From: a virus
Taxonomy: Duplodnaviria > Caudoviricetes
DNA length: 56,051 bases
Strand: one strand, 5' to 3'
IMG/VR virus record: IMGVR_UViG_3300031673_016563
Location: 1 to 56,051 of that record
Shown: piece by piece, positions 9,464-25,124 of the stretch
How the letters are laid out: each line of letters opens with the position of its first letter
Numbering within the stretch: the first letter of the stretch is position 1
The notes under the pieces: model-generated
Databases searched by the model: none
Told to the model about the DNA's origin: nothing
Seen by the model: the letters and a program-made list of their open reading frames with translations, nothing else
Translations under genes and position numbers: made by a program

Positions 9464-9564
9464 TGGTCGCCGGGGGGACTGAGGGATATAATTCATTATT
9501 TGTAACAGAGATAAATATTATAACCTTCCTCTCCTTGGATTAAAAAGTAAGGGGGATTAAACAA

Positions 9565-9804: not shown

Positions 9805-9856
9805 GTCTCCAATAGTTGCGGATTCTAAGAAATAGATTAAATTAAGGAGCAATAAA

Positions 9857-10513
9857 ATGTTAAATAAAGAAAGAATAAAAGCACAATTAATATCAGATGA
9901 TAAAAAACAAATAAACGTTCACAATGGTATCACAGGATTGCATCATAACGTTTACGGTGATTTCAAAAACGTTAGAGGCAATGTATCAAGATTATATGGT
10001 TCCGTATCACCAAAATTATCCGGAGATATATCAGGATTAATGGGAACCATATCACCAGGATTAGGGGGTGATATATCAAGATTATTCGGAGATATATCAA
10101 GATTATATGGTTCCGTATCACCAAAATTATCCGGAGATATATCAGGATTAATGGGAACCATATCACCAGGATTAGGGGGTGATGTATCAAGATTATTCGG
10201 GGATATATCAGGATTATTCGGTTCCGTATCACCAAAATTATCCGGAGATATATCAGGATTAACGGGAACCATATCACCAGGATTAACGGGAACCATATCA
10301 CCAAAATTATGGGGTGATGTATCAAGATTATTCGGTTCCATATCATCAAGATTAACGGGAACCATATCATCAGATTTATATGGAGATATATCAAGATTAA
10401 CGGGAACCATATCACCAAAATTATCCGGAGATGTATTGGATTTATCCGGGGATATAACAGGTATTGAGGGTGATGTAAAAGAAATAATAAATATTTTAAA
10501 AGGAGAGCAATAG
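9857..10513 (+). CDS. GDISGL-repeat family protein, copy A
   Basis: conserved N-cap MLNKERIKAQL..NVH.GITGLH..YGDF, 7- and 8-aa repeats, C-cap GDITGIEGDVKEIINILKGE. Confidence 0.8.
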   Translation: MLNKERIKAQLISDDKKQINVHNGITGLHHNVYGDFKNVRGNVSRLYGSVSPKLSGDISGLMGTISPGLGGDISRLFGDISRLYGSVSPKLSGDISGLMGTISPGLGGDVSRLFGDISGLFGSVSPKLSGDISGLTGTISPGLTGTISPKLWGDVSRLFGSISSRLTGTISSDLYGDISRLTGTISPKLSGDVLDLSGDITGIEGDVKEIINILKGEQ

Positions 10514-10514
10514 G

Positions 10515-11318
10515 GTGGATCAAATAAAAAGTCTTGAGGAAAGGTTTAAATACCTAGAGAGTTTGGGCTTCAAGACTCCTGAACATGGGTTAATAAAGGT
10601 TGAGAGTATTGAAGACACTTATCAATACTTTATTGATAAGAGGGGTTCCCTTGATTATGGGATAGATGGTATTGTTTTCTCTATAGATGATATGGAAAAA
10701 ATGGAATCCTTGGGAGTGTTGAATGAGAAACAAAAACCAAAAGGTCAGATAGCGTTAAAATTTCCAACTTCAGTGCACTATACCAAAATTCTAGATGTTG
10801 AGCTCAGCTTTAAAGGTACACAGGATATCAGTCTTGTGGCGCATATTGAGCCTGTTGAAATAGATGATACTACGATTAGGAAGGCGAGTCTAAAAAGCTA
10901 TAGGTGGGCTATTGATAATAAAGTATCAATAGGTTCGGTGGTGGGGGTGATAAAAGGGGGGGATATTATTCCTTGTATTACTGAGGTTATAAATACAAAT
11001 ATAAATTCTTTGTATGTTCCTTTTCCCATCCTTTTAAAATGCCCACATTGTGGAGGAGAAATTAAAACGGATGATACCCAATTATATTGCGAAAATGATA
11101 TGTGCAATGCTAAGGAGGCAGCTAGGATCTCTAAATTTTTGAAAATTATCAAGGTAAAAGGTCTAGCCTACAAAACTTTATTGAAATATGTAAATGTGGG
11201 TGTAGGCTTATGTCATTTTTTAGCTAAGAATTGGGATGAGATTGAGAGAATGATTAAAGTGGATTCTAGAATATCTTTAGTGATATGGGATAGGATTAGA
11301 AAATCTTTAGAGGAGTAA
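10515..11318 (+). CDS. ligA: NAD+-dependent DNA ligase, fragment 2 (rest of adenylation domain, OB fold, Zn finger, first HhH motifs)
   Basis: YLESLGF, YGIDGIVF, IALKF, EPVEI, IKGGDIIP, CPHCG..YCEN..C, VKGL. Confidence 0.9.
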   Translation: MDQIKSLEERFKYLESLGFKTPEHGLIKVESIEDTYQYFIDKRGSLDYGIDGIVFSIDDMEKMESLGVLNEKQKPKGQIALKFPTSVHYTKILDVELSFKGTQDISLVAHIEPVEIDDTTIRKASLKSYRWAIDNKVSIGSVVGVIKGGDIIPCITEVINTNINSLYVPFPILLKCPHCGGEIKTDDTQLYCENDMCNAKEAARISKFLKIIKVKGLAYKTLLKYVNVGVGLCHFLAKNWDEIERMIKVDSRISLVIWDRIRKSLEE

Positions 11319-11322
11319 TAAA

Positions 11323-11592
11323 ATGTTAAATAAAGAAAAGATAAAAGAGCAGTTAATATTGAATGTTAAACAACAAGTAAATGTTCATGATAATATCATA
11401 GGATTACATTCCAATATTTATGGTGATTTCAAGAATGTTAAGGGTAACATAACAGGATTATATGGAAACATATCAGGATTATCCGGAAACATGTTACCCT
11501 GTTTGTATGGAGACATATCCGATATATCCGGGGATATAACAGGTATTGAGGGTGATGTAAAAGAAATAATAAATATTTTAAAAGGAGAGTAA
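11323..11592 (+). CDS. GDISGL-repeat family protein, copy B (short)
   Basis: same N- and C-caps as copy A; 65 bp at the 3' end identical to copy A. Confidence 0.8.
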   Translation: MLNKEKIKEQLILNVKQQVNVHDNIIGLHSNIYGDFKNVKGNITGLYGNISGLSGNMLPCLYGDISDISGDITGIEGDVKEIINILKGE

Positions 11593-11596
11593 TAAA

Positions 11597-11779
11597 ATGT
11601 TAAATAAAGAAAGAATAAAAGCACAATTAGATGGGGGTAAACCAATAGATGTTCCTAAGCAGGTGGGTATCCATATAATATCAGAATGTCAGGGGGGTAT
11701 ATTAGTTGATATACCTTTGGAGGGTCAGGGTTGTGTATTAGATAATGATGCTGATATAGTTATTTTGGAGGAACAATAA
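11597..11779 (+). CDS. chimeric small ORF: family N-cap fused to unrelated sequence
   Basis: 11591-11629 identical to 9851-9889 (MLNKERIKAQL), then no repeats. Confidence 0.55.
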   Translation: MLNKERIKAQLDGGKPIDVPKQVGIHIISECQGGILVDIPLEGQGCVLDNDADIVILEEQ

Positions 11780-11781
11780 AA

Positions 11782-11994
11782 ATGCCACTATATGGGTATG
11801 AATGTACATTTTGTGATTTCAAGTTTGAACTGCGGAAGAATATGTTGAAATCGGATGATACAGAGTACTGCCCACAATGCGGGTCGGAATGTAATAAGTT
11901 GATATCCGGAGGTAGCGGATTCATTTTAGAAGGTAGCGGATGGGCTAAAGATGGATATTCAGATTCTCACAGTAAAGGGGGGAGCCACGAATGA
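11782..11994 (+). CDS. FmdB-family zinc-ribbon protein
   Basis: MPLYGYEC..C...FE...CPQCG...GSGFILEGSGWAKDGY. Confidence 0.85.
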   Translation: MPLYGYECTFCDFKFELRKNMLKSDDTEYCPQCGSECNKLISGGSGFILEGSGWAKDGYSDSHSKGGSHE

Positions 11995-12515
11995 ATCTAG
12001 CTAAATTTTTAGATAGTATATCCATTACTGCTGCGGGGGAACTTACCTTTCAGCAATTCATTGATGAGGGGTTTGATACTTTGTATAAGATAAATGAAAT
12101 GTCTATCGATCAAATGGCGAGTTCGGGCAAATCTAAGAATAGAATATTGGGAGAGAAGACTGCTGAGAAAATATATAATAGTCTACATTCGGCAAGGGTA
12201 AGATTATTATTAGAGTTCTCGGATTTATGGATAAACAAATTGGACGATTCTCCTCCACAAGAAGAGGAGAATAATGAGCTCTTAATGAATGTGCGGGGTA
12301 AGAAGTTACTTTTCACTGGGGAGGGGCCTTTTTCTAGAGCAACATTAACGGCGATCTTGAAAAGGAATAATGCAATTGTTCAATCCTCTCTTACAAAAGA
12401 AACTGATATTTTGATTTTGAGTAATTTGGATAGTACTTCAAGTAAGGCTAAGAAGGCTAGAAAATATGGTACAAAAATGATTACTTACGAGGATGTTTTT
12501 GGAGGGCAGGTGTAA
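11991..12515 (+). CDS. ligA: NAD+-dependent DNA ligase, fragment 3 (last HhH motifs and BRCT)
   Basis: LAKFLDSISI..AGE, LGEKTAEKI, BRCT GKKLLFTG...SSLTKETDILI...SSKAKKARKYG. Confidence 0.88.
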   Translation: MNLAKFLDSISITAAGELTFQQFIDEGFDTLYKINEMSIDQMASSGKSKNRILGEKTAEKIYNSLHSARVRLLLEFSDLWINKLDDSPPQEEENNELLMNVRGKKLLFTGEGPFSRATLTAILKRNNAIVQSSLTKETDILILSNLDSTSSKAKKARKYGTKMITYEDVFGGQV

Positions 12516-12548
12516 AATTTTTAAGAGCCAGATCAAATATATAGTATA
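12511..12548 (+). promoter_or_regulatory. conserved bipartite promoter-like motif, copy 2
   Basis: TGTAAAATTTTT...ATCAAATATATAGTATA, 21-nt offset. Confidence 0.7.
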
Positions 12549-12567
12549 AACCAATTAAAAACTTAAT

Positions 12568-13236
12568 ATGAGCAATAAAATGACAAATAAAGAAAAGATA
12601 AAAGCACAGTTAGAATTGGATGTTAAACAACAAATAAACGTTCACGATGGCATCACAGGATTACACCTCTTTATATATGGGAATTTCAAAAACGTTAGAG
12701 GTGATGTATTTAAATTATCCGGAGACATAACAGGATTATCCGGAACCGTATCATCAGGATTGTTCGGGGATATAACAGAATTATCCGGCCACATATCAGA
12801 ATTATCCGGTAACATATCAGGATTATCCGGTAACATATCAGGATTATCCGGTAACATATCAGGATTATCCGGAATCATATCAGGATTATCCGGTAACATA
12901 ACAGGACTATCCGGAACCGTATCATCAGGATTGTTCGGAGATATAACAGGATTATTCGGTAACATATCAGAATTATGGGGTAACATATCAGGATTGTTCG
13001 GAGATATAACAGGATTATCCGGAGACGTATCAGGATTATCCGGTAACATAACAGGATTATTCGGAACTGTATCATCAGGATTATCAGGAAACATATCAGA
13101 ATTATCCGGAGACATAACAGGATTATCCGGAACCGTATCATCAGGATTGTTCGGGGATGTTACCTACTTATCCGGGGATATAACAGGCATTGAGGGTAAT
13201 ATAGAGGATATAATAGATATTTTAAGAGAGGAGTAA
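12568..13236 (+). CDS. GDISGL-repeat family protein, copy C (start may be 12580)
   Basis: MTNKEKIKAQL N-cap, GNISGLS / GTVSSGLF repeats, GDITGIEGNIEDIIDILREE C-cap. Confidence 0.8.
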   Translation: MSNKMTNKEKIKAQLELDVKQQINVHDGITGLHLFIYGNFKNVRGDVFKLSGDITGLSGTVSSGLFGDITELSGHISELSGNISGLSGNISGLSGNISGLSGIISGLSGNITGLSGTVSSGLFGDITGLFGNISELWGNISGLFGDITGLSGDVSGLSGNITGLFGTVSSGLSGNISELSGDITGLSGTVSSGLFGDVTYLSGDITGIEGNIEDIIDILREE

Positions 13237-13243
13237 TAAAGGG

Positions 13244-13281
13244 TGTAAAATTTTTTAGATTCAAATCGAATATATAGTATA
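13244..13281 (+). promoter_or_regulatory. conserved bipartite promoter-like motif, copy 3
   Basis: TGTAAAATTTTTT...ATCGAATATATAGTATA, 21-nt offset. Confidence 0.7.
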
Positions 13282-13315
13282 GGCTCTTAAAAACTTAAAA
13301 TTAAGGAGATTAAAA

Positions 13316-13648
13316 ATGAGTAATGTAATAACAAGTACGGCATCAATTATTGATCATGTTCGATCCAAAAAGAATATCAAGGTAGCATTTGTAAAGAAGA
13401 ATGGCGATGATCGAGTAATGAATTGCACTTTGGATTTTGATCGTATCCCAGAATTTCATCATCCTGACGATTCAGAGAAGGAAGTAGACCCTATGGAGGA
13501 GAAGGATAAAACTTATCTGAAGGTTTATGATTTAGAGAGCCATGGTTGGAGGAGTATCCCTTTGAGGGGGCTTAATTGGTTAAGTGTGGATGATGAGAAA
13601 TATGAAATGAGCTTGGATTCTAAACAAAATCCTCAAATTCTAAGATAA
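13316..13648 (+). CDS. WYL_2/DUF2693-like SH3-fold protein
   Basis: VAFVKKNGDDRVMNCTL and VYDLE..GWRS motifs. Confidence 0.75.
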   Translation: MSNVITSTASIIDHVRSKKNIKVAFVKKNGDDRVMNCTLDFDRIPEFHHPDDSEKEVDPMEEKDKTYLKVYDLESHGWRSIPLRGLNWLSVDDEKYEMSLDSKQNPQILR

Positions 13649-13659
13649 AGGAGAATAGA

Positions 13660-14199
13660 ATGACCGGAAAGGAAAAATTGATTCAAGAAGCTGAAATAAG
13701 ATATATTAAATACCTAACCTCTAAGGAGATTAGACAGTTAACATGTACGGAGGTAGAGCATCTCTCCGTACATGAAATTAAAGCTCTATCCCCATTCCAA
13801 ATAGGTTTTTTCAATTCGGAACAAGTGAAATATATGAGTTGTGAGTTTTTCAGATTTGTGGGAAGGGATCAACTGAAGGTGTTTGTTGATAGGCATATAT
13901 CGGATTTAACTCCCATTCAATTAGAGGCATTGATTGATTTACAATCAGACATCCTCACGAAAAAGAATGTGCGGATGTTAACTATACCACAGATATCTGA
14001 GTTGGATGAGGCTCGATGTGAAGTACTATGTCGAATAATGGAGATCCCAGAGGGGGGAATAAAAATGGCTGAATCAAATATAACAATTAATGGCCATACA
14101 CTTAATGATCTTGAAGTTCGAAAAGGGTTGGGAGATATGTGTAAGGTGTACATTGAGAATACTAAAAGTATAAAGGAGTTAATTGATGGGGGGAAATAA
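13660..14199 (+). CDS. hypothetical protein with 8-aa L[ST]xx[EQ]I repeats
   Basis: LTSKEIRQ LTCTEVEH LSVHEIKA LSPFQIGF FNSEQVKY periodicity. Confidence 0.6.
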   Translation: MTGKEKLIQEAEIRYIKYLTSKEIRQLTCTEVEHLSVHEIKALSPFQIGFFNSEQVKYMSCEFFRFVGRDQLKVFVDRHISDLTPIQLEALIDLQSDILTKKNVRMLTIPQISELDEARCEVLCRIMEIPEGGIKMAESNITINGHTLNDLEVRKGLGDMCKVYIENTKSIKELIDGGK

Positions 14200-14524
14200 T
14201 GAGGATCTCAAGCGAAAGACATTAATGGAGGATATTCAGAGTAAATTATATAAATTCGCAAAGGAGATATATGAATTAATGGAGCAGGGTATTGGGGTAA
14301 AAGAAGAATTTGAGGAGGATATCATAAATTATCTTGAGGAGTTAGTAGAGGATAATATCATCCAGGATTTCCGATTAATGGAATTGATTGTGTATCCAAG
14401 CCCTATTACCTCTATAAGTGTCATGTTGTCACTAGGAGATCCGGAAGGAATATTTTCTGAATTTCATGTGGGAGCAGGTTACACTAAAAATAACCCTATT
14501 TCATGTGGATGTAGTATACTCTAA
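14183..14524 (+). CDS. hypothetical protein, weak resemblance to tail-sheath C-terminal domain
   Basis: IINYLEELVEDNIIQDFRL pattern. Confidence 0.5.
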   Translation: MMGGNNEDLKRKTLMEDIQSKLYKFAKEIYELMEQGIGVKEEFEEDIINYLEELVEDNIIQDFRLMELIVYPSPITSISVMLSLGDPEGIFSEFHVGAGYTKNNPISCGCSIL

Positions 14525-14543
14525 AAATAATTTTTAAATAGGG

Positions 14544-14581
14544 TGTAAAATTTTTCTTCTTAGAATCGAATATATAGTATA
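14544..14581 (+). promoter_or_regulatory. conserved bipartite promoter-like motif, copy 4
   Basis: TGTAAAATTTTT...ATCGAATATATAGTATA, 21-nt offset. Confidence 0.7.
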
Positions 14582-14617
14582 GAATAATTAAATATTTTAA
14601 AGGGGGAGTAATAATAA

Positions 14618-14653
14618 ATGCTAAATAAGGAAAAGATAGGAATACATCCTTGA
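14618..14653 (+). pseudogene. collapsed remnant of a GDISGL-family gene (MLNKEKIGIHP*)
   Basis: family start MLNKEKI joined to GIHP (family G-L-H-P); preceded by sequence matching the family 3' end. Confidence 0.6.
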
Positions 14654-14769
14654 ATCGAGCTTTATGAAATATTACTGAGAAAACGGCTGAATTAAAGCAA
14701 AATTAAAGTTAACCTTGAGGAAGATACGAGGAAATGGGATATTTTCCTCGTATCTCGGAGGCATGAAAA

Positions 14770-15183
14770 ATGCAAGTTAAAGATTATGTAATAACAAAAG
14801 TTGTAAATGGGGTCAATCATGGGACAGTAGAAATATGTAATTCCTCAAATTTGCTTGACTCCATAAGAGAGTATTTCAAGGATACATCAAAATTGAGATT
14901 TTCTCAGGAGGAGAGTAATAAGATTTATGTCACGGATGAGAAATATGTTTTAGCGTATGTTTGTACTTGGGGAGAGCCTAAGACGGCTACGGTGTTGACT
15001 TTGGAGGATATAGAAAAGATATCTGATTTCATTATGTCCGAAGATCCGGCCTTATTAACTGTGACAGACTCCGATTGGATAAGGTATTTAATTTCTGAGG
15101 CTATACGAAAGATAAAAGGCGTCAATTTTCTAGAGGGAGAAGAAGAAATAAAAGGAATTAATTTTTTCAAGGAGGGGATATAG
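14770..15183 (+). CDS. hypothetical protein
   Basis: GGAGG SD, 137 aa ORF. Confidence 0.65.
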   Translation: MQVKDYVITKVVNGVNHGTVEICNSSNLLDSIREYFKDTSKLRFSQEESNKIYVTDEKYVLAYVCTWGEPKTATVLTLEDIEKISDFIMSEDPALLTVTDSDWIRYLISEAIRKIKGVNFLEGEEEIKGINFFKEGI

Positions 15184-16284
15184 ATGACAACATATAAAGA
15201 ATCAGGTGTGAATATTGAGGCGGGGGATGATTTTTCAAAGTATATTTACAAAGCTATACAATCCACTTGGGTAGATTCGGGGTGGAGAAAAATGATCACA
15301 CCTCTTGATGATTTTTCGGGATTGAGATATGTGGATATTTCAAATCTGGATAATGTTGTAATGGGTATGAATTTTGATGGGATTGGCACGAAGGTTAATA
15401 TTGCGGAAGCTTTGGGAGATTTTTCAACCATAGGTTATGATCTTGTTGCCATGGTGTGTGACGATGCTATAATTCGGGGGGCAGAGCCAGTGCTAATGGG
15501 GTCAATCATAGATCTGAATCATATCCCTTTGAATTATCATTCTCAGTTAAAGGATTTGATCAAAGGTTATGTGGAAGCTGCAAAAGTAGCAAATGTCCAA
15601 ATCATAAATGGGGAAGTAGCGGAACTTGGAAATAGAGTCCAAGGGTCTGGACCTTTAAATTTGAATTGGGGTGCTGGGGTGGTATGGTTTGCTAATAAAG
15701 ATCGAATAATATCGGGGAAAAATATTGAGGTTGACGATAGTGTAGTTTTATTTAAAGAAGATGGTTTTCGATCGAATGGTATATCCTTGGTAAGAAGAAT
15801 ATTTGTAGTAGAGTATGGAGCTTTTGTCACGGATAGAGAAGGATATCTTGAAAAAATGTTGACTCCTTCTCGAATATATACTCCAGCTATAATAGAAATG
15901 ACCGGGGGTGTTTACGGAGAGATTAAGGTTGATATTCAAGGTATGGCGAATATTACAGGGGGTGGATTACCTGGAAAATTAGGAAGGATGATGAAACCTT
16001 CAGGATTAGGTATTGATTTGAATGATCCCTTTGAGCCTCCTGATATTATGTTAGAATTTCAGGAGAAAGGGGATGTTAAAAGTAAAGAAGCCTACCGAAC
16101 TTGGAATATGGGTAATGGGTTTGCGGTGGTTACAAAAGATCCTGATAAGGTTATTGAGCTTGCCAAGAAGCATGGTATCGAGGCCAAAATCGGAGGAAAT
16201 GTCATTGATAGCAAAATAATAAAGATAAAAGATAAGGGGGCGTTTAGTAAGAATAAAACGTTACTCTTTCCTTTGGAGGAATAG
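15184..16284 (+). CDS. purM: phosphoribosylformylglycinamidine cyclo-ligase (AIR synthetase)
   Basis: YKESGVNIEAG, DGIGTK, DLVAM, GEVAE, GFRSNGISLVR, NITGGG, TWNMGNG. Confidence 0.93.
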   Translation: MTTYKESGVNIEAGDDFSKYIYKAIQSTWVDSGWRKMITPLDDFSGLRYVDISNLDNVVMGMNFDGIGTKVNIAEALGDFSTIGYDLVAMVCDDAIIRGAEPVLMGSIIDLNHIPLNYHSQLKDLIKGYVEAAKVANVQIINGEVAELGNRVQGSGPLNLNWGAGVVWFANKDRIISGKNIEVDDSVVLFKEDGFRSNGISLVRRIFVVEYGAFVTDREGYLEKMLTPSRIYTPAIIEMTGGVYGEIKVDIQGMANITGGGLPGKLGRMMKPSGLGIDLNDPFEPPDIMLEFQEKGDVKSKEAYRTWNMGNGFAVVTKDPDKVIELAKKHGIEAKIGGNVIDSKIIKIKDKGAFSKNKTLLFPLEE

Positions 16285-16286
16285 AG

Positions 16287-16562: not shown

Positions 16563-16573
16563 GGCGGATAAGA

Positions 16574-16876: not shown

Positions 16877-16877
16877 A

Positions 16878-18173: not shown

Positions 18174-18204
18174 GATCAATTGAATAAGATCAATTGAATA
18201 AGAT
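18168..18204 (+). repeat. 14-bp tandem repeat at a gene junction
   Basis: GAATAAGATCAATT x2 plus partial GAATAAGAT, spanning the purB stop and next start. Confidence 0.85.
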
Positions 18205-18772
18205 TACAATTTTTATAGAAAGAGATGGGGTTATTAATATAAATAGTGAAGCAGTCAATAAGAAAGAGGATATTGAGTTTAATCCTCATATTTTTGAATT
18301 GCTTAGATCATTTAAGGATCATGATTATAGAGTTATTGTGATATCGGATCAAAATGATGTGGGGGTATATGATTACCCTTTAAATACCGATTTAGATATT
18401 ACAAACATACATGTGATGTATGTTTGTAATATCTTGGATCAGAAAGGGCAAATAGACCATATATATCAATGCAATCATGTTTTCATAGAGGATTGTGCAT
18501 GTCTTATGCCAAATAGTACCCTGATTCAAAGGGCTTTGGATAGTTATCCGGATATTGATATAGATAATTCTTTGATGATCGGGGAGAGTTGGAGAGCTAT
18601 GAATGCAGCTTCTAGTCTTGGTATAAAGACTTGCTTTCTTATAAGTGAATTACAAAATCTGCATATGTGCAATAAAGAGCCTGATTTTTGTATATCGGAT
18701 GTGTTGCAGGCTTCTAAATTAATTCCCTCATATTTTAAGAATAAAAGGAAGTTAGATGATAAAAATTCTTAA
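18194..18772 (+). CDS. GmhB/HisB-N-like HAD-IIIA phosphatase homologue with degenerate catalytic motifs
   Basis: IFIERDGVIN, YQCNH....CACLMP, SLMIGES, PDF. Confidence 0.75.
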   Translation: MNKITIFIERDGVININSEAVNKKEDIEFNPHIFELLRSFKDHDYRVIVISDQNDVGVYDYPLNTDLDITNIHVMYVCNILDQKGQIDHIYQCNHVFIEDCACLMPNSTLIQRALDSYPDIDIDNSLMIGESWRAMNAASSLGIKTCFLISELQNLHMCNKEPDFCISDVLQASKLIPSYFKNKRKLDDKNS

Positions 18773-18858
18773 GAGATATTTTTGGTATATTATATTATCT
18801 ATGATATATGGGTCAGCATTATATTTAATCTTAAACGGAGTCAATTGGAGATAGGAGT

Positions 18859-19233
18859 ATGAAGGAATATAAACCTTTCATTTATCCGGATAGTTCAAGA
18901 TGGGGTTCTAGCAGGCATAAGTCTTGTTGGGATTGTGATCATATTTTACTAAGAGGTCAGTTCAATAGGAGATGTGTGGTACACCTTAAAGTCTTTGTGT
19001 GGAGTGGTGATTCTGAAAGTGAGTTATTGGATTATCCCTTTGGTATAGGTAATACATTAGCGGATAAGTGTCCGGATTATGTGCTCAATTCTGAATATAA
19101 AACTTTACCTGAGGATAGGCCATATGAAGTTAATCTGGAGAAGGAGGAATTTATGAGGAGTTTATATAAAGAGCGTGATTTTGAATGCCTACTAGAATTG
19201 ATAGAAATTAGAAAGAAGGAATTAACAATTTAA
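18859..19233 (+). CDS. hypothetical Cys-containing protein
   Basis: AGGAG SD; CWDC...C...CPDY. Confidence 0.6.
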   Translation: MKEYKPFIYPDSSRWGSSRHKSCWDCDHILLRGQFNRRCVVHLKVFVWSGDSESELLDYPFGIGNTLADKCPDYVLNSEYKTLPEDRPYEVNLEKEEFMRSLYKERDFECLLELIEIRKKELTI

Positions 19234-19243
19234 GTTGGAGGTA
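19224..19243 (+). repeat. direct repeat left of purD
   Basis: AACAATTTAAGTTGGAGGTA, 19/20 identical to 20517-20536. Confidence 0.8.
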
Positions 19244-19251
19244 TATTTATA

Positions 19252-20526
19252 ATGAATATAATGGTGATAGGATCAGGGGCTAGAGAACATGCTATGGTTT
19301 GGGCTTTGAAGAAAGATTCTGAAGTAAGTAAAATAATTTGTGTTCCAGGGAATGCAGGTATATCTAAGGTTGCAAAATGTATAAAAGGAGATATTAATAA
19401 TATTTCTGAGTTGTATAATATAGCAAAATATGAGGAAATAGATTTAACTATAATTGGTCCGGAATTACCTTTATCGTTGGGAGTGGTGAACTTCTTTAAT
19501 GAAAGAGGGATGCAAATATTTGGGCCTTGCAAAGAAGTTGCTCAACTAGAGTCCAGCAAATGTTTTTCAAAATCTTTCATGCAGAGGCATAACATACCCA
19601 CTTCGGATTTTAAGCAATTTGAAGATCCGATAGAAGCAAAGAAATATATTAAATTTATTAAAAACACATACGTTGTGAAAGCGGACGGATTAGCCTCTGG
19701 CAAAGGTGTTTTTATATGCCATAATGAATCCGAAGGTATTGATGCTATAAATAAAATAATGATGTATAAAAATTTTGGAGGTGATGCGGGTAAAAAAATC
19801 GTTATAGAAGATTTTTTAAAGGGAAAAGAAGTATCTTTAATGGTAGTTACGGATGGGGTTAATATTAAATTATTGGAGACTTCCGTGGACTATAAAGCAT
19901 TGAGAGTAAATAATATTACGTTGAATACGGGTGGAATGGGTGCGTATAGCCCCTCTGAAATAATGGGTGGGAAGTTATCCGATAATATACTTAGAGATAT
20001 AGTAATACCAACATTAGACAATATATATTTGGAGACGGGGAATAAATATAAAGGTGTATTATATTTGGGGTTAATGATTGATGAGGAAGGTATGCCTTTT
20101 GTTTTAGAATATAATGTTAGATTAGGAGATCCTGAGACGCAAGCATTATTAGTAAGGCTTGAAAGTAGTTTTTTAAAATTATGTTTAGCTACAATAAATG
20201 AAAATTTAAATGAGGTGGATATATTGTGGAAAAATACTCCATCGGTTTGTATAGTTGCTGCATCTAAGGGGTATCCTAATTGCTATGACATAAATAAAGA
20301 GATATTTGGATTGGAGACATTTAATGAATCTTTTAAATCTGTTGAGATATTTCATGGAGGTACGATTTTTGGAGAAGAGGGTAAAATATTAACCGGAGGT
20401 GGAAGAGTACTTTCAATTGTCTCAATAGGAGATTCTATAAATTCTGCCAAACAATTAGCATATGAAGCTATAAGAAGCATATATTTCGATGGTATGTTTT
20501 ATATTGAGAATATAGGAACAATTTAA
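19252..20526 (+). CDS. purD: phosphoribosylamine-glycine ligase (GAR synthetase)
   Basis: IGSGAREHA, PGNAG, GPELPL, LESSK, KADGLASGKGV, NTGGMGAY, EYNVRLGDPETQ, GYP, GGRVL. Confidence 0.96.
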   Translation: MNIMVIGSGAREHAMVWALKKDSEVSKIICVPGNAGISKVAKCIKGDINNISELYNIAKYEEIDLTIIGPELPLSLGVVNFFNERGMQIFGPCKEVAQLESSKCFSKSFMQRHNIPTSDFKQFEDPIEAKKYIKFIKNTYVVKADGLASGKGVFICHNESEGIDAINKIMMYKNFGGDAGKKIVIEDFLKGKEVSLMVVTDGVNIKLLETSVDYKALRVNNITLNTGGMGAYSPSEIMGGKLSDNILRDIVIPTLDNIYLETGNKYKGVLYLGLMIDEEGMPFVLEYNVRLGDPETQALLVRLESSFLKLCLATINENLNEVDILWKNTPSVCIVAASKGYPNCYDINKEIFGLETFNESFKSVEIFHGGTIFGEEGKILTGGGRVLSIVSIGDSINSAKQLAYEAIRSIYFDGMFYIENIGTI

Positions 20527-20536
20527 ATTGGAGGTA
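20517..20536 (+). repeat. direct repeat right of purD
   Basis: AACAATTTAAATTGGAGGTA, includes purD stop and next SD. Confidence 0.8.
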
Positions 20537-20541
20537 AAATT

Positions 20542-20865
20542 ATGTTTGATGATATTTTGAACAGAGAGCCGGAGTTAACCCCGGAACAAAAAAGAAGTCA
20601 GGAAATTTCCAGGATGAATGAGATGCGTAAACAATTCATATCATCTCTAATGAGTTTTGTTGAAAATGCAGTGGTATCCAAAAGGAAGGTGGTTGAAATC
20701 CCTATATATGCGGGATCAGAGGTTTCTAAATTGAGGCATATCATAAAGAGAATAGCCACGGGGTTTGGATATCAAATAAAAAATATGAAGAAGAGACATA
20801 TCATCATTGAAAATACAAAATTTGTGATCAAAGTTATCCCTAAACCAAAGGATGTAAAATTATGA
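20542..20865 (+). CDS. hypothetical protein
   Basis: GGAGGT SD, 107 aa ORF. Confidence 0.65.
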   Translation: MFDDILNREPELTPEQKRSQEISRMNEMRKQFISSLMSFVENAVVSKRKVVEIPIYAGSEVSKLRHIIKRIATGFGYQIKNMKKRHIIIENTKFVIKVIPKPKDVKL

Positions 20866-20890
20866 GAAGTTAAATCGAATATAATGTAAA
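20853..20890 (+). promoter_or_regulatory. conserved bipartite promoter-like motif, copy 5
   Basis: TGTAAAATT...ATCGAATATAAT, 21-nt offset. Confidence 0.6.
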
Positions 20891-20902
20891 GGAGGTAGTA
20901 TA

Positions 20903-22294
20903 ATGATCCCAGAAAAAGTCAAATATGACTTAAACAAATTAGTGTTCTCTAATCCTGATTTGATATATATCTTAGATGAGTTTATGAAGGGTTGCCATAA
21001 TATATATCTTGTTGGAGGGTGTGTGAGAGATACCTTGATAGGTATGGGATGTAAAGATATTGATTTAGTAACGGATGCTTCTCCGGAGGAAATTAAGGAG
21101 ATGTTCCCTGAGGCCAAATGTCACGGTCAATTTTTGATCACTGTGGTAAGAGGTGTTGAGATTGCTACATATAGGGAGGATGTATTTAACACGGGTAAGG
21201 CTACGGAATGTAAAGTTCGGAGAGTTCAAACGATTGAGGAGGATTTAGCAAGAAGAGATTTTACTTGCAATGCTATGGCATTTGATCCTATAGGTCAAAA
21301 CATAGTTGATTTGTACGGTGGATATACATCTTGTCTTTTTAGAGAGTTATCCTTTGTGGGGAAACCTGATAGGAGAATTCAGGAATCTAATGCGAGGATT
21401 TTGAGAGCTTGTAGATTTGTTGCCGTATTAAATGGGAGCTTTGATATAGACACTTTAGAGGCCTTAAAGAGGAATGCTCATTTAGTGAACAATATTTCCA
21501 AAGAAAAGATCATGTTGGAAATAAAAAAGGCTATGAGTATCAAAAGAGCTTCAATGTTCTTCAAGGCTCTACATGCTATTGGAGCTTTACAATATATCTT
21601 TCCTTCCTTAGAGGATTGTGTGAATCAAGATGGCGGCCCGCATCATGCCGAAACGGTATTTGATCATTGTATGGAGGTGGGAGATGCTATTACCACAAAA
21701 AATTGGAGATTGAAGTTGGCCGGGTATTTGCATGATATTGGTAAGCCTCCTTGTGCTGAGATTGCAGCGGAAACAAATGCTTTGAGATTTAGGAATCATC
21801 CCGTAACGGGGGCAAAACTAGCAACCAAGGAGTTAAAGGATCTGAAGTTCAGCAATGAGGATGAGGCTTATATCTCTAATCTGGTGTTACTGCATATGAC
21901 CTCCTTGAAAGAGGATTTCACCAAAAAAGCAGTAAAGAAATTTATAAGGAAATTGAAAGAGAAGAATATTAATTATAAAGATTGGTTCAAATTGCGGATA
22001 GCGGATAGAAAGGGGAATCGAAAGAGCTTCAATTATACCTTCAGAGAGATTTACGATAGAGTGGGATTGATCCATGATATACTCAAGGAGAAAAATGTAT
22101 TCTCATTAAAGGATTTGGCGGTTAACGGTCAAGATGTTATGAATATTCTTCATATTTTACCAGGGCCTTTGGTGGGGGCGGTATTGAAAGCATTATTTGA
22201 GGATTGCTTCAATAATCCTGAGCGTAATAACAAAGAATTTTTGTTGTATCGAATGAGTAACCTATCTGAGTTGATGTGCGATGATTTAAATTAA
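20903..22294 (+). CDS. cca: class II tRNA nucleotidyltransferase (CCA-adding/poly(A) polymerase family) with HD domain
   Basis: YLVGGCVRD..G..KDID, EIATYR, EDLARRDFTCNAMA, RILRA, LHDIGKP, DLAVNGQD. Confidence 0.9.
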   Translation: MIPEKVKYDLNKLVFSNPDLIYILDEFMKGCHNIYLVGGCVRDTLIGMGCKDIDLVTDASPEEIKEMFPEAKCHGQFLITVVRGVEIATYREDVFNTGKATECKVRRVQTIEEDLARRDFTCNAMAFDPIGQNIVDLYGGYTSCLFRELSFVGKPDRRIQESNARILRACRFVAVLNGSFDIDTLEALKRNAHLVNNISKEKIMLEIKKAMSIKRASMFFKALHAIGALQYIFPSLEDCVNQDGGPHHAETVFDHCMEVGDAITTKNWRLKLAGYLHDIGKPPCAEIAAETNALRFRNHPVTGAKLATKELKDLKFSNEDEAYISNLVLLHMTSLKEDFTKKAVKKFIRKLKEKNINYKDWFKLRIADRKGNRKSFNYTFREIYDRVGLIHDILKEKNVFSLKDLAVNGQDVMNILHILPGPLVGAVLKALFEDCFNNPERNNKEFLLYRMSNLSELMCDDLN

Positions 22295-22308
22295 CGGAGT
22301 AAATAATA

Positions 22309-22614
22309 ATGGAAAATAAAAATATAGAAAAGATGAAGGAAGAAATCAAGAGTGTTATATTTGATATGTATTCTGAAGTTGAGGCCTCAGAGATATATGA
22401 AAGATTTTGTGAGGACTTGGAAGATCTGGGTTTTTTAGTAGAATCCTCCATTTTAAGTTCATATATGCCAGAGTCTGTGAAAAATAATTGGGGTACTTTG
22501 TCCCAGGAGTCTAAGGTGTCCGTCTATTTAACTATTTGCCATATAGTGGGTGCTATATTGTTGCAGGCACAAAGTAAAGACGCCCCAAATATACCTAAGA
22601 ATCAGATAAATTAA
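22309..22614 (+). CDS. hypothetical protein
   Basis: GGAG SD; flanked by similar stop-RBS-start segments. Confidence 0.65.
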   Translation: MENKNIEKMKEEIKSVIFDMYSEVEASEIYERFCEDLEDLGFLVESSILSSYMPESVKNNWGTLSQESKVSVYLTICHIVGAILLQAQSKDAPNIPKNQIN

Positions 22615-22627
22615 GGAGTTAATAATT

Positions 22628-23173
22628 ATGAGTCAAGAAAAAGGTAGAGAGCAAGTATTTCAATTGGGGGTTAATTATATCAATGGATATATAGATAGAG
22701 AATTTCAAGGCAAATTTGAGGGTATGGAGTGGAATCATGATACCAAACTTAAGATGTTGGGAATTGTTCTAGATGGATATAGAAAAATGCGTTCTTCAGC
22801 GCCATTTTTGCATATAGTAGAGTATCCAAGAATATCAATCTACATGGATGTAGATAAATTAAAGATAAATGTTCAAGGTTGGGGGAATACTTGTAGGCAT
22901 TGTCAATTATTAGGGTCTATGCAATATAATAAAGGTACATATTATGATATATATTATTGTAATCCTAATCATTTAGTAGGGGGGGAGATTGATTTAAAGA
23001 TAAGATATGGAGATAATCCGGAAGAAGTATATCTTAGAGAAGTTAAGTATGCTCAAGATTGCGGCCTTAAATGGAGGGCTGCTGTTCAGTTATTCAACAA
23101 TAGGGCTGATATCTTGATTATCAATCCTTATGATCTTAGTTCAGAGATTGAATATAAGAAGGAAAGGAAATAA
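22628..23173 (+). CDS. hypothetical protein
   Basis: AAGGAG SD, 181 aa ORF. Confidence 0.65.
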   Translation: MSQEKGREQVFQLGVNYINGYIDREFQGKFEGMEWNHDTKLKMLGIVLDGYRKMRSSAPFLHIVEYPRISIYMDVDKLKINVQGWGNTCRHCQLLGSMQYNKGTYYDIYYCNPNHLVGGEIDLKIRYGDNPEEVYLREVKYAQDCGLKWRAAVQLFNNRADILIINPYDLSSEIEYKKERK

Positions 23174-23176
23174 ATT

Positions 23177-24082
23177 ATGGGAGATCCTAAAAGATCTATT
23201 TCTCGGTTCGATAGCAAAGGAGCTGTCACAAGTAATGCAGTAACTATTAAATCTATTCCTAAGATGGGGAAGAAAGATGAATCTTTTGATGCTTTACTTG
23301 CGGAACAATCTAAAGCAGCCTCATTAAAGACTGATAAATTATTAAAGAAAGTTAAATCAAAACCTACTCCAAAACCTACTCCAAAACCTACTCCAAAACC
23401 TACTCCAAAACCTACTCCAAAACCTGAGGGGGAAATCATTGAATCAATGGATGATATAGATCTATCTTTCTTAGGTTTGGATTCCTCATCGGAAAAAGAA
23501 TATGATATGGAATCCGCTATTCTCAAGGAGGAGGTGGATAATATAGTAAAAAATCCATCTAAACTTGAGTCTTCTGATGAGAACGTAATTTCAGAGGCCA
23601 TTAAACCTTCGGAGCCATATGTGAAACAATATTATTATAATGAACCTAATCAAGAGAATTTCGAGTTAAAGGTTGCACCACTCAAAGATATTTGTATAAC
23701 TCTACCTTCAGGGGGTAGGCGAAATGCAAATGTTCAGATCTTTCATTTATTTAAGGAATCATCATTATGGAGGGAGGTTCTAAATCAAATTAAGAAATCC
23801 GGAGGCGAAGTACGTTGGATATATAAAGATTCTTTGTTAAGTAAGATTTTTATTCATGCCTTAGAGGATATATATGCTTGTGATAATTCGGCTTATATGG
23901 AATGTCTTCCATATTTACATGTTATAAAGAAAAATAAAAAATATGTGATAGTCTTGGCCTCAATTATTTTTCTTTATTTAGGTATACCTTGTTATGTAGT
24001 ATGTGAGGTATCTGATTTCAATCGGGGAAACATAGAGGATATATTTTTGGTAGGGGTGGATATAATAGAGGCCATAGAATAA
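23177..24082 (+). CDS. hypothetical protein with KPTP repeat linker
   Basis: 12-bp AAACCTACTCCA x5 near 23360-23420. Confidence 0.7.
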   Translation: MGDPKRSISRFDSKGAVTSNAVTIKSIPKMGKKDESFDALLAEQSKAASLKTDKLLKKVKSKPTPKPTPKPTPKPTPKPTPKPEGEIIESMDDIDLSFLGLDSSSEKEYDMESAILKEEVDNIVKNPSKLESSDENVISEAIKPSEPYVKQYYYNEPNQENFELKVAPLKDICITLPSGGRRNANVQIFHLFKESSLWREVLNQIKKSGGEVRWIYKDSLLSKIFIHALEDIYACDNSAYMECLPYLHVIKKNKKYVIVLASIIFLYLGIPCYVVCEVSDFNRGNIEDIFLVGVDIIEAIE

Positions 24083-24100
24083 TTAAGGATACGAGGAGTT

Positions 24101-24334
24101 ATGAAGATTATATTTGGTAAAAAGGCGAATTATCCAACTTTTCATTTATTGAAATTGGATTTGGAGCCTAAAGGTTTAAGGAAAAACTTTGATTATTTGT
24201 ATTATGATTTGCAGACAAAAGAAGGATATGAAGAATTTAAATCTAGGGGTTTTACTGATTTAGAGTACCAAGATTTTTTAGTTAATATAAAAGATTTTGA
24301 ATCAAAATTACCAATAATTTTAGAGGAGTATTAA
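24101..24334 (+). CDS. hypothetical protein
   Basis: GAGGAG SD. Confidence 0.6.
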   Translation: MKIIFGKKANYPTFHLLKLDLEPKGLRKNFDYLYYDLQTKEGYEEFKSRGFTDLEYQDFLVNIKDFESKLPIILEEY

Positions 24335-24336
24335 TC

Positions 24337-24696
24337 ATGACAAATAGAGAAAAAATATTTACGCAATTGAGATTCAGTTTAAGATTACAAAAAAATGTCC
24401 ACGATAGTATTATAGGATTACACCCTAATATTTACGGTGATTTCCAAGACATTAGGGGGACCATATCATCAGAATTATCGGGAGATATAACAGAATTATC
24501 AGGAGATATAACAGGTATTAAGGGGATTATATGTCCAGAATTATCTGGAACCATATCATCGGAATTATCAGGAGATATAACAGAATTATATGGTGATGTA
24601 TCAGGATTATATGGAAACATATCAGGATTATCAGGAGATATAACAGGTATTGAGGGTAACATAGAAGACATAATAAAAATTTTAAAGGAGGATTAA
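24337..24696 (+). CDS. GDISGL-repeat family protein, copy D
   Basis: MTNREKI..QL..NVHD.IIGLHPNIYGDF N-cap, repeats, GDITGIEGNIEDIIKILKED C-cap; 25-bp flanking direct repeats. Confidence 0.8.
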   Translation: MTNREKIFTQLRFSLRLQKNVHDSIIGLHPNIYGDFQDIRGTISSELSGDITELSGDITGIKGIICPELSGTISSELSGDITELYGDVSGLYGNISGLSGDITGIEGNIEDIIKILKED

Positions 24697-24698
24697 TC

Positions 24699-25124
24699 AT
24701 GATGGATAATTTTAAAAAAAGTGTAATGTTAACACCGGATGCTATATTTGATAATCTTATGGGGAATATGAGTTTAGATGATATGCAGAGGGTATTTAGA
24801 GATTATGATAAATTATCAAATATCTCAACAAAAGAAATATTTGATAACGGAGGCAAGTATTCTGTTGTAGACATCCCGAATTCATTATTTGAATTTATGA
24901 TGAACAAGCTTTTAATTTCAGAGGGGCAGATAAAGTTGGCCTCTCATATGCATGTATTCAATAAAACTATGGAGGTGGTATTGTGTCTTCCTATTAGCCA
25001 ATATAACAAGAATATCTATGAGTATCGGATTATATTGTCAAATAATAAAGCAAGGTTGCTAAATCAAATAAATCAAATAGCGGATGAGCTGAAATTATTG
25101 TCGGATATAGAGTTGGGAGAATAA
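24699..25124 (+). CDS. hypothetical protein
   Basis: AGGAGG SD. Confidence 0.65.
   Translation: MMDNFKKSVMLTPDAIFDNLMGNMSLDDMQRVFRDYDKLSNISTKEIFDNGGKYSVVDIPNSLFEFMMNKLLISEGQIKLASHMHVFNKTMEVVLCLPISQYNKNIYEYRIILSNNKARLLNQINQIADELKLLSDIELGE

What the first reader, a model, noticed from the sequence alone, without database searches (positions are those of the whole stretch)
9846..24702. Candidate gene-cassette system: genes bounded by duplicated stop-RBS-start junctions
Seen: copy D is flanked by AATTTTAGAGGAGTATTAATCATGA (24316-24340) and AATTTTAAAGGAGGATTAATCATGA (24678-24702), 23/25 identical. Copy B is flanked by GAGTAATAAAATGTTAAATAAAGAAA on both sides, and copy A by GAGCAATA. Related junctions (TTTxxxGGAG..[TC]AATAAAATG-like) recur near 11306, 11577, 11764, 13221 and 14595. 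purD and the 22309 gene show the same layout with different repeat sequences. The repeats include the last codons of the upstream gene, so neighbours end alike (LEE/LREE/LKGE/LEEQ/LEEY/LKED). Inference: genes enter or shuffle by recombination at translation junctions so each insert inherits an RBS and regenerates one for the next gene, an integron-like logic with no integrase visible in the window. This may explain how ligase was split without being inactivated.
Basis: partly seen in the sequence, partly recalled or inferred. Interest (0 to 1): 0.8.

Follow-up and report, generated by a model that had tools for sequence, protein, structure and literature searches.

The report
Gene gain and loss at phage junctions
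In a variable stretch of a large soil phage genome, whole genes are gained, lost, duplicated and swapped at the short repeated signals between genes, which looks like ordinary phage recombination and not a new integron-like machine.

Summary
The quoted repeats sit at the stated coordinates. Flanking junctions resemble each other more than random junction pairs do (3 of 80 adjacent pairs against 8 of 3160 others; 34 of 20000 permutations reach this).

Three causes explain it.
- Five "copies" belong to one heptad-repeat gene family. Its repeat unit runs from one stop-RBS-start junction to the next, so each copy carries a family tail as its leader.
- Where genes abut, the ribosome-binding site lies in the last codons. 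This forces E-rich endings.
- Contigs of related strains from other soil runs lack whole genes, and the breakpoints lie in short direct repeats: a 9-mer at the ribosome-binding site (gene 13660-14199), TGGAG (gene 18859-19233) and a roughly 55-nt promoter-like element (family copy 12580-13236).

Genes therefore do move at junctions. I found no integrase, no attC-like hairpin and no shared core beyond stop plus RBS. The best reading is recombination between short repeats using the phage's general machinery, a close analogue of PeSL shuffling in T4-type phages.

The NAD ligase is cleanly cut into three contiguous ORFs. Its first piece is under purifying selection.

No empty site was seen for copy D, purD or gene 22309, and the direction of change (gain or loss) is unresolved.

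The parts
8120..8752 (+). NAD-dependent DNA ligase, piece 1 (adenylation domain, N part, KxDG present)
   Evidence: Pfam DNA_ligase_aden profile 10-146. PDB alignment reaches about residue 226-231 of full-length LigA chains. 14 of 17 listed differences to strain X2 are synonymous.
8753..10514 (+). Insert 1 in the ligase: ORFs 8763-9140, 9203-9463 and 9565-9804, a promoter-like element at 9135-9184, and family copy A
   Evidence: ORF list. No Pfam or PHROG family for the three ORFs. Strains X2 and X4 diverge right after the start codon at 9208/9211.
9857..10513 (+). Family copy A (heptad-repeat protein, 218 aa). Its tail supplies the RBS for the GTG start of ligase piece 2.
   Evidence: Alignment A1; sequence.
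10515..11318 (+). Ligase piece 2 (end of adenylation domain, OB fold, Zn finger, start of HhH)
   Evidence: Pfam DNA_ligase_aden 170-252 and DNA_ligase_OB. PDB 1v9p residues 237-464 match query residues 4-229.
11323..11592 (+). Family copy B (89 aa)
   Evidence: Alignment A1. Identical 26-mer at both junctions (D16).
11597..11779 (+). Family copy C, keeping only the family N-terminus and tail (60 aa)
   Evidence: Alignments A1, A2 and A3.
11782..11994 (+). Small zinc-ribbon ORF. Its stop overlaps the ATG of ligase piece 3.
   Evidence: Pfam Zn_ribbon_8; sequence.
11991..12515 (+). Ligase piece 3 (HhH and BRCT)
   Evidence: Pfam BRCT. PDB 1dgs residues 505-654 match query residues 5-169.
12510..12566 (+). 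Promoter-like conserved element, left of copy E
   Evidence: One of 7 copies in the window against 0.2 expected (D10, 41, 59).
12580..13236 (+). Family copy E (218 aa), absent in strain X4
   Evidence: Alignment A1. X4 joint 12566 to 13313 with 20 other letters between (table 5c).
13243..13299 (+). Promoter-like conserved element, right of copy E
   Evidence: Left and right flanks of E align over about 90 nt.
13645..13653 (+). 9-mer ATAAAGGAG, left direct repeat of gene 13660-14199
   Evidence: Sequence. The X4 allele keeps one copy.
13660..14199 (+). Gene of 179 aa, absent in strain X4
   Evidence: X4 joint 13609 to 14170 with 35 homologous letters between (table 5c). The depth bins fit (table 2).
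14170..14178 (+). 9-mer ATAAAGGAG, right direct repeat of gene 13660-14199
   Evidence: Sequence.
14543..14650 (+). Promoter-like element followed by a family tail-like leader and a decayed family start (MLNKEKI..)
   Evidence: D10, D15; alignment A3.
18845..18850 (+). TTGGAG, left boundary repeat of gene 18859-19233
   Evidence: Sequence; joints in X2, X3 and X4.
18859..19233 (+). ORFan of 124 aa, absent in strains X2, X3 and X4
   Evidence: Joint 18850 to 19246 in 3 of 4 runs, sides 255, 64 and 147. No homologue but itself.
19224..19250 (+). Left junction of purD: last codons of gene 18859-19233 plus the purD RBS. A secondary copy of the purD 3' junction.
   Evidence: 24 of 27 identical to 20517-20543.
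19252..20526 (+). purD (GAR synthetase)
   Evidence: Pfam GARS_N, GARS_A and GARS_C. GARS_C profile 1-91 of 92 reaches residue 423 of 424, so its end is native.
20517..20543 (+). Right junction of purD (native purD end plus RBS of the next gene)
22287..22311 (+). Left junction of gene 22309
22309..22614 (+). ORF of 101 aa, no family. Present in X2 and X4.
22607..22630 (+). Right junction of gene 22309
24316..24340 (+). Left junction of copy D. It forms the last codons (ILEEY) of gene 24101-24334.
   Evidence: In X2 the same junction type follows a family copy. A 96% identical homologue ends ILEED.
24337..24696 (+). Family copy D (119 aa)
   Evidence: Alignment A1.
24678..24702 (+). Right junction of copy D (family tail, RBS, ATGA)

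Best explanation
Positions 8.7-25 kb of the window are a hyperplastic region of a large soil phage. Its capsid protein is 36-40% identical to those of phage G-like jumbo phages.

Gene-sized segments there are duplicated, lost, gained and exchanged by recombination or replication slippage between short sequences that recur at gene boundaries. These sequences are the stop-plus-Shine-Dalgarno junction (5 to 27 nt) and a roughly 40-60-nt promoter-like element. The enzymes would be the phage's general recombination and replication machinery, not a dedicated integrase.

Breakpoints lie at junctions for two reasons. The junctions supply the microhomology, and only events that keep a stop, an RBS and a start survive.

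The heptad-repeat family forms tandem arrays whose period runs from junction to junction. Any copy taken from an array therefore carries a family tail as its leader and is flanked by the same junction.

What is shown:
- the repeats themselves and their excess over chance;
- three presence/absence polymorphisms with breakpoints in the repeats;
- the clean three-way split of the ligase.

What is inferred:
- the recombination mechanism;
- the direction of each event;
- the tandem-array origin of the repeats around copy D;
- a tandem-duplication origin of the purD repeat.
For: 1. Excess similarity of flanking junctions.

2. Strain contigs.
- Gene 18859-19233 is absent in X2, X3 and X4, which come from three studies. 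The three alleles all differ by segments bounded by TGGAG.
- Gene 13660-14199 is absent in X4, which keeps one copy of the 9-mer ATAAAGGAG. Its left context matches the window's left junction and its right context matches the right junction.
- Copy E plus one promoter-like element is absent in X4, which keeps a single element.
- In X2 a different, copy-A-like family copy starts exactly after 24340, the end of the left repeat. An L-type junction also follows a family copy there.

3. Family leaders resemble family tails for 13 to about 34 nt even where no family copy lies upstream (copy A, the relic at 14581, copy D). The two junctions of copy D share a stretch, ATTAATCATGA, that no other family junction has.

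4. The end of purD is native. The matching end of the strain-variable gene 18859-19233 is therefore the secondary copy.

5. Glutamate occurs in the last two residues of 12 of 21 genes that lie 0-6 nt from the next gene (8 of 17 without the family). It occurs in 6 of 43 genes that lie 12 nt or more away.

6. No mobility enzyme was found in 80 of 82 ORFs, and no hairpins at cassette ends.

7. The layout of copy E matches the published PeSL scheme: an ORFan flanked by two elements in one phage and a single element in its relative (PMC2839356, abstract and section 16 read).
Against: - X2 and X4 both carry purD and gene 22309.
- The two X4 joints (12566 to 13313 and 13609 to 14170) appear only in table 5c. 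Their side lengths were not shown, and all runs are contigs laid at 88% likeness, so rare forms and circles cannot be seen.
- The X2 arrangement at the D locus is read from a joint table of one contig, not from its sequence.
- Repeats of 24-27 nt are longer than usual microhomology. My account of the purD repeat needs two events.
- With the family junctions removed, the statistical excess is modest (218 of 20000 permutations).
- The window is only part of the genome. A protein of the window occurs on a contig of 134,860 bases, so a recombinase may lie outside.
- The promoter-like element does not fit the sigma-70 consensus and has no stem-loop. Its function is inferred from position and conservation only.
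Confidence: 0.6

Rival explanations
1. A dedicated cassette system. A recombinase or reverse transcriptase encoded outside the window recognises the stop-RBS-start junction and inserts or excises genes there.
For: Flanking repeats of 23-27 nt around D, purD and gene 22309 exceed usual microhomology. Whole genes differ between strains at junctions. The window covers only part of the genome.
Against: No such enzyme in 80 of 82 ORFs of the window. The repeats differ in sequence and length (5 to about 60 nt) and share only a stop plus GGAG. There is no hairpin or palindrome common to the junctions. Family structure explains the family cases.
Confidence: 0.07
2. The heptad-repeat genes are themselves selfish cassettes without an enzyme. 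Each unit carries its own tail as leader. It can therefore recombine into any junction or coding stretch that resembles the tail, and it restores a stop, an RBS and a start on both sides. That is how it split the ligase.
For: Family copies sit at the edge of both ligase inserts and just after the ligase. Ligase piece 2 ends in codons that resemble the family tail. The family copy at the D locus differs between strains, with the breakpoint at the junction. The leader resembles the tail even away from arrays.
Against: Only five copies and one relic, in one lineage. No relatives of this subfamily were found elsewhere to test spread. Non-family genes (13660-14199, 18859-19233) show the same kind of polymorphism, so nothing family-specific is needed.
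Confidence: 0.12
3. Homing endonuclease or other mobile-element insertions made the splits and indels. The endonuclease genes have since decayed or lie elsewhere, and the junction repeats are by-products of repair.
For: Split ligase, split PolA and several tiny ORFs inside the splits, including zinc-ribbon ORFs just before the downstream piece in both. From my own knowledge, free-standing endonuclease genes split genes in T4-like phages.
Against: No HNH, GIY-YIG, LAGLIDADG or related family in any ORF of the inserts. Homing does not predict direct repeats on both sides.
Confidence: 0.08
4. No recombination meaning at all. Junctions look alike only because all carry a stop codon and a strong RBS in AT-rich DNA.
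For: Baseline likeness is high. Motifs such as AATTAAGGAG recur at unrelated junctions, and non-adjacent pairs score up to 17.5. E-rich endings follow from RBS overlap. Gene 22309 alone is borderline.
Against: Adjacent pairs exceed permutations (34 of 20000). D and purD score above every non-adjacent, non-family pair. Strain indels have breakpoints in the repeats.
Confidence: 0.08

Closest known systems
PeSL-mediated modular shuffling in T4-type phages (Arbiol et al. 2010, PMC2839356; abstract and section 16 read)
   Same: A conserved regulatory element occurs many times in a variable region. An ORFan (copy E) is flanked by two elements in one strain, while a close relative has a single element. 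The inserted gene brings or inherits expression signals. No dedicated recombinase is needed.
   Different: The element here is about 40-60 nt, does not match the sigma-70 consensus and has no stem-loop terminator. Most boundaries here are not this element but the stop-RBS-start junction itself. Mini-circles could not be looked for.
Short-homology (illegitimate) recombination or slippage between direct repeats, the classical source of phage deletions and tandem duplications (general knowledge, recalled)
   Same: Indel alleles have breakpoints in 5-9-nt direct repeats and retain one copy (genes 13660-14199 and 18859-19233).
   Different: Here the repeats are ribosome-binding sites, so events remove or add exactly one gene and keep translation signals. 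Some flanking repeats are much longer (23-27 nt).
Integron gene cassettes
   Same: A one-directional array of small genes. Genes come and go as units between repeated boundary sequences.
   Different: No IntI in the window, no attC hairpins and no common core site. Each cassette has its own RBS, and some have their own promoter-like element (and the Pfam calls).
Morons of lambdoid phages (recalled, no paper read)
   Same: Extra genes are slotted between neighbours. Copy E sits between two promoter-like elements.
   Different: No terminators were found. Most inserts here have no promoter of their own and rely on translational junctions.
Two-chain NAD-dependent DNA ligase, PDB 9hu3/9i5i (chains named 'DNA ligase (NAD(+))' and 'DNA ligase subunit B'; that it is from phage T5 is my recollection)
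   Same: An NAD ligase encoded as separate polypeptides in a virus-like setting. Residues 173-266 of piece 2 match subunit B residues 6-99.
   Different: Here there are three pieces, cut inside the adenylation domain and inside the HhH region. They are separated by 1.76 kb and 0.67 kb of other genes.

Membership tests
Integron | IntI tyrosine recombinase next to the array | tested here: not met
   No Phage_integrase or other recombinase family in 80 of 82 + strand ORFs of the window. The rest of the genome is not held.
Integron | attC sites: imperfect inverted repeats at the 3' end of each cassette | tested here: not met
   27 inverted-repeat pairs in 8700-25200; none recurs at cassette ends. 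Only a weak palindrome lies at the right junction of D.
Integron | Promoterless cassettes expressed from one common promoter | tested here: inconclusive
   Seven promoter-like elements are interspersed, four of them inside 9-15 kb. Their function was not tested.
PeSL-type regulatory-cassette shuffling | Conserved multi-copy regulatory element in the variable region | tested here: met
   7 matches with at most 3 mismatches against 0.20 expected, all on the + strand and upstream of genes.
PeSL-type regulatory-cassette shuffling | Element made of a sigma-70-like early promoter plus a stem-loop terminator | tested here: not met
   The consensus scan finds no more promoters than shuffles do (89 against 86) and none at the elements. 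No terminator-like hairpin lies beside them.
PeSL-type regulatory-cassette shuffling | Differential ORFan flanked by two elements; a single element in the relative | tested here: met
   Copy E lies between elements 12510-12566 and 13243-13299. X4 joins 12566 to 13313 (table 5c; side length not shown).
PeSL-type regulatory-cassette shuffling | Excised mini-circles | not testable with these tools
   Only assembled contigs were available.
Short-homology deletion or duplication | Breakpoints in short direct repeats with one copy kept | tested here: met
   Gene 13660-14199 (9-mer) and gene 18859-19233 (TGGAG).
NAD-dependent DNA ligase (LigA) | Adenylation domain with KxDG, OB fold, Zn finger, HhH, BRCT, in order and complete | tested here: met
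   The pieces cover about residues 1-231, 235-502 and 501 to the end of full-length chains. KLDG is present in piece 1. Activity was not tested.
Homing-endonuclease insertion | Endonuclease gene within or beside the insert | tested here: not met
   No nuclease family in the ORFs of either ligase insert.

The most novel reading that the evidence does not exclude
The heptad-repeat genes are an enzyme-free, self-targeting gene cassette. Each unit begins with a copy of the family's own stop-RBS tail. The host phage's recombination can therefore drop it into any junction, or any coding stretch, that resembles that tail. The unit then ends the upstream reading frame and restarts the downstream one. 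This would let it split essential genes such as the ligase without killing the phage, and spread within and between genomes.
Probability: 0.12. Interest if true: 0.75.

Novelty: new variant of a known kind. Interest (0 to 1): 0.4.

Why it matters
The window shows, at nucleotide resolution and with natural strain variants, how a large phage adds and drops single genes without disturbing its neighbours. The ribosome-binding site and stop codon double as the recombination homology, and a short promoter-like element does the same over longer distances. This extends the PeSL idea from T4-type coliphages to an unrelated soil jumbo phage, and from promoter cassettes down to translation junctions. It also documents a three-piece NAD ligase that seems to be kept by selection. 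That matters for annotation and for understanding how split enzymes arise.

Tried and rejected
Searches for relatives found nothing usable.
- DNA search of the phage collection with 8100-13400: no match.
- IMG/VR scans with ligase piece 2, gene 24699-25124 and purD: no relative.
- A 17-nt core of the promoter-like element in IMG/VR gave 57 loci with one match each. I treat these as chance, and used them only as control loci.
No full sequences of strain variants could be fetched.
- The wide family alignment had no stretch conserved enough for a locus search.

Structure of the family. The AlphaFold model of copy D had mean pLDDT 44, so I made no fold search and make no fold claim. The Atlas look-alikes (viral hypothetical clusters; hexapeptide beta-helix proteins at TM about 0.5) are leads only.

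Homologue searches. Genes 18859-19233 and 24101-24334 have no homologues beyond near-identical ones, so the native ends of those genes could not be judged from relatives.

Other tests.
- Tandem paralogy as the cause of the repeats around gene 22309 and copy D is rejected: no protein similarity to the downstream neighbours.
- The gene-end motif TAGATTRR is not enriched overall (12 found against 17.6 expected).
- A possible 13-of-14 repeat (near 8737-8750 and 9825-9838) around the 1.1-kb block in ligase insert 1 was read by eye. By my own rough estimate, made without a script, it is not beyond chance, so it is not used.

Parts of the laid stretch without contig cover in X3 and X4 are not used as evidence.

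Full report
**What the window is.** All 82 ORFs of 40 aa or more that I kept lie on the + strand, mostly 0-20 nt apart, in DNA of 32-42% G+C. It is a virus record of 56,051 bases.
- Its capsid-like protein (45057-45923) is 36-40% identical to the major head proteins of Bacillus phage G, Tunturiibacter phage Tunturi_5 and a 485-kb uncultured phage.
- One of its proteins also occurs on a contig of 134,860 bases.
- The window is therefore part of a large soil phage. The six sequencing runs that hold it are all labelled soil metagenome.
- The finding's span encodes a ligase in pieces, purM, purB, purD, a CCA-adding enzyme and many ORFans.

- I scored 81 junctions (30 nt upstream plus 4) by local alignment. 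The left and right junctions of copy D, purD and gene 22309 scored 20.5, 19.5 and 16.0.
- Only 3 of 3003 pairs lying at least four genes apart reached 16.
- Using the upstream 30 nt only, 3 of 80 adjacent pairs reached 14 against 8 of 3160 other pairs. Just 34 of 20000 permutations of gene order did as well.
- After removing the nine junctions linked to the gene family, 2 of 71 adjacent pairs remained, and 218 of 20000 permutations did as well.
- In unrelated viral loci the same script found 7 of 407 adjacent and 19 of 1549 non-adjacent pairs at 16 or more. Four of the 7 came from one locus. Loci under 4 kb or holding N were dropped and not counted.
- The effect is thus real in this genome: strong for D, clear for purD and borderline for 22309.

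**First cause: a gene family whose unit runs from junction to junction.** Copies A (9857-10513), B (11323-11592), C (11597-11779), E (12580-13236) and D (24337-24696) are paralogues.
- They share an N-terminus (MLNKE.IKAQL..NVHD.I.GLH), a variable run of heptads (GDISGLS-like) and a shared C-terminus ending ILKGE or similar.
- A decayed sixth copy follows the element at 14543.
- Homologues are few and metagenomic: 14 proteins at E of 0.001 or better. There is no Pfam or PHROG family above threshold.
- B and C are in tandem, so the tail of B is the leader of C.
- The DNA upstream of A, of the relic and of D also resembles a family tail for about 25-34 nt, although no family copy lies upstream there.
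- The two junctions of D share a stretch (ATTAATCATGA) that no other family junction has.
- In strain X2 one contig runs through gene 24101-24334 to 24340. It then continues with a family copy closer to A than to D. In the same joint table, a family tail is followed by the L-type junction 24316-24340.
- I read this as a tandem array at the D locus whose length and content differ between strains. The last codons of gene 24101-24334 would then be a captured family tail. This reading comes from a joint table and not from the contig's sequence.
- A 96% identical homologue of that gene ends ILEED instead of ILEEY. By my own reading of the codons, not by any search, this would bring the left junction closer to the right one.

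**Second cause: coding constraint.** Where the next gene starts 0-6 nt after the stop, the Shine-Dalgarno sequence must lie in the last codons (GGAG and GAGG read as G and E).
- Glutamate is among the last two residues in 12 of 21 such genes, or 8 of 17 without the family.
- The figure is 6 of 43 for genes followed by 12 nt or more.
- This explains the LEE, LKGE and LEEQ endings without any recombination.

**Third cause: genes really do come and go at repeats.** I laid the contigs of four runs on 8000-27000 at 88% likeness. X1 is probably the source sample. X2, X3 and X4 come from other studies and differ by roughly 1-6%.
- *Gene 18859-19233.* A joint 18850 to 19246 occurs in X2, X3 and X4, with sides of 255, 64 and 147 letters. 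The gene is replaced by 22 letters in X2 and X3 and by 8 letters in X4. Set against the window sequence, the three alleles differ by segments bounded by TGGAG, the ribosome-binding motif.
- *Gene 13660-14199.* X4 joins 13609 to 14170 with 35 letters between. Those letters are a diverged version, of the same length, of the end of gene 13316-13648. The X4 junction consists of the left context of the window's left junction, one copy of the 9-mer ATAAAGGAG, and the right context of the right junction.
- *Copy E.* X4 joins 12566 to 13313, which removes copy E and one of the two promoter-like elements that flank it.
- *Limits.* The last two joints come from table 5c only. They have the same depth (6.22), and I take them to lie on one contig because of that equal depth. 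Their side lengths were not listed, but the depth bins fit them.
- *Other variation.* X2 and X4 also diverge from the window directly after the start codon at 9203 (loose ends at 9208 and 9211).

**The promoter-like element.** A conserved stretch (GTGTAAAATTTT, a spacer, then AAATCGAATATATAGTATA) occurs 7 times against 0.2 expected. All copies are on the + strand and lie 2-35 nt before an RBS.
- In two copies (9135 and 12510) its first letters supply the last codon and the stop of the upstream gene, read.
- It does not fit the sigma-70 consensus and carries no hairpin.
- I infer its function from position and conservation only.

**purD.** The GARS_C profile reaches residue 423 of 424, so the end of purD is native.
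- The 24-of-27 match upstream of purD therefore means that the strain-variable gene 18859-19233 ends with a copy of the last codons, stop and RBS of purD.
- purD itself is present in X2 and X4. The variable unit is thus its neighbour, not purD.
- A tandem duplication of purD between the two similar ribosome-binding sites, followed by replacement of the first copy, would give this layout. That is inference and needs two events.

**Gene 22309.** I found no polymorphism and no further clue for gene 22309. It is not a paralogue of its downstream neighbour, and neither is copy D.

**The ligase.** There are three ORFs.
- They cover about residues 1-231, 235-502 and 501 to the end of full-length LigA chains. 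Nothing is missing and KLDG is present.
- Insert 1 (8753-10514) ends with copy A, whose tail provides the RBS for the GTG start of piece 2.
- Insert 2 (11319-11990) starts with copy B directly after the codons SLEE. It ends with a zinc-ribbon ORF whose stop overlaps the ATG of piece 3.
- Of the 17 differences to X2 listed within piece 1, 14 are synonymous (758 rows of that table were not shown). Piece 1 is therefore kept by selection.
- A two-chain NAD ligase has been solved (PDB 9hu3), but it is cut at a different place.
Activity is untested.

**What it is not.**
- There is no integrase, resolvase, transposase, reverse transcriptase or homing endonuclease in 80 of 82 ORFs. Copy B was scanned against PHROGs only, and the 42-aa ORF at 49301 was not scanned.
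- No inverted repeat recurs at cassette ends.
- The boundary repeats range from 5 to about 60 nt and share only a stop codon and GGAG.
- This fails the defining features of an integron.

**Closest known system.** The closest is PeSL shuffling in T4-type phages. There, ORFans that differ between close relatives are flanked by conserved regulatory cassettes, and the relative keeps one chimeric cassette (PMC2839356, abstract and section 16). Copy E reproduces that picture. The smaller events reproduce classical deletion or duplication between short direct repeats (recalled knowledge), with the twist that the repeats are ribosome-binding sites.

**Verdict.** The pattern is genuine, and there is direct evidence that genes are gained or lost at junction repeats. 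It is best explained by general recombination in a hyperplastic region together with the architecture of one gene family, not by a new cassette machine.

**Still open.**
- The direction of each event.
- The origin of the long repeats around purD and gene 22309.
- Whether the heptad family is actively selfish.
- What lies in the unseen rest of the genome.

Supplements of the cited paper were not opened, and no claim here depends on them.

Noticed in passing
window 16878-18173: purB (adenylosuccinate lyase) is interrupted by an in-frame TAG at 17772-17774, where the conserved motif LWHERD has tryptophan. The frame continues undisturbed (..ENVAL*HERDISHSS..). It may be a nonsense mutation, read-through or a sequencing error. 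TAG ends 16 of the 81 genes tallied, so recoding is unlikely.
   Followed up: partly
window 25129-27549: DNA polymerase A is also in pieces: exonuclease domain (25129-25995), an ORF with no family (25992-26525), a 63-aa cysteine-rich ORF (26530-26721), and the C-terminal polymerase part matching profile 152-380 (26725-27549). As in the ligase, a small zinc-ribbon-like ORF sits just before the downstream piece.
   Followed up: partly
window 18394-18434: A perfect 19-nt inverted repeat with a 3-nt loop lies inside the HAD-like gene 18194-18772. It is close to a place where X2 and X3 contigs skip or replace 18363-18544.
   Followed up: no
window 12580-13236 and protein P0001: P0001 (89 aa, on a contig of 86,425 bases) equals copy E with 129 residues of heptads missing. 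This is either a length polymorphism of the repeat array or an assembly collapse.
   Followed up: no
window 24280-24342: In all four runs a contig matches the window from 24280 onward but has unrelated sequence before it. In X1 another does so from 24342. The end of gene 24101-24334 plus the junction seems to occur in a second context that I could not see (table 7).
   Followed up: no
window 960-967, 2238-2245, 7489-7496, 8745-8752, 29447-29454: Five genes end with the same letters, TAGATT followed by two purines (giving L/I-D-stop), although the motif is not enriched in the window as a whole (12 found, 17.6 expected).
   Followed up: partly
window 5674-7146: A 490-aa protein with a long run of 12-nt repeats (6133-6624, four-residue G-D/N-V/L-T units), a duplicated 260-nt segment (5837-6098 and 6593-6854) and a glycine-zipper match.
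   Followed up: no
window 2292-3821, 15184-16284, 19252-20526, 20903-22294, 28525-29220: Auxiliary genes: CTP synthase, purM, purD, a CCA-adding enzyme with an HD domain and a DnaJ-domain protein. Clamp-loader subunits and a 5'-3' exonuclease lie at 30485-35310.
   Followed up: no
window 9203-9290: In X2 the first 80 nt of gene 9203-9463 are replaced by a longer stretch that matches family heptad repeats. In X4 the letters after 9211 read like a heptad repeat. Family repeats seem to be fused to other genes in sister strains.
   Followed up: no
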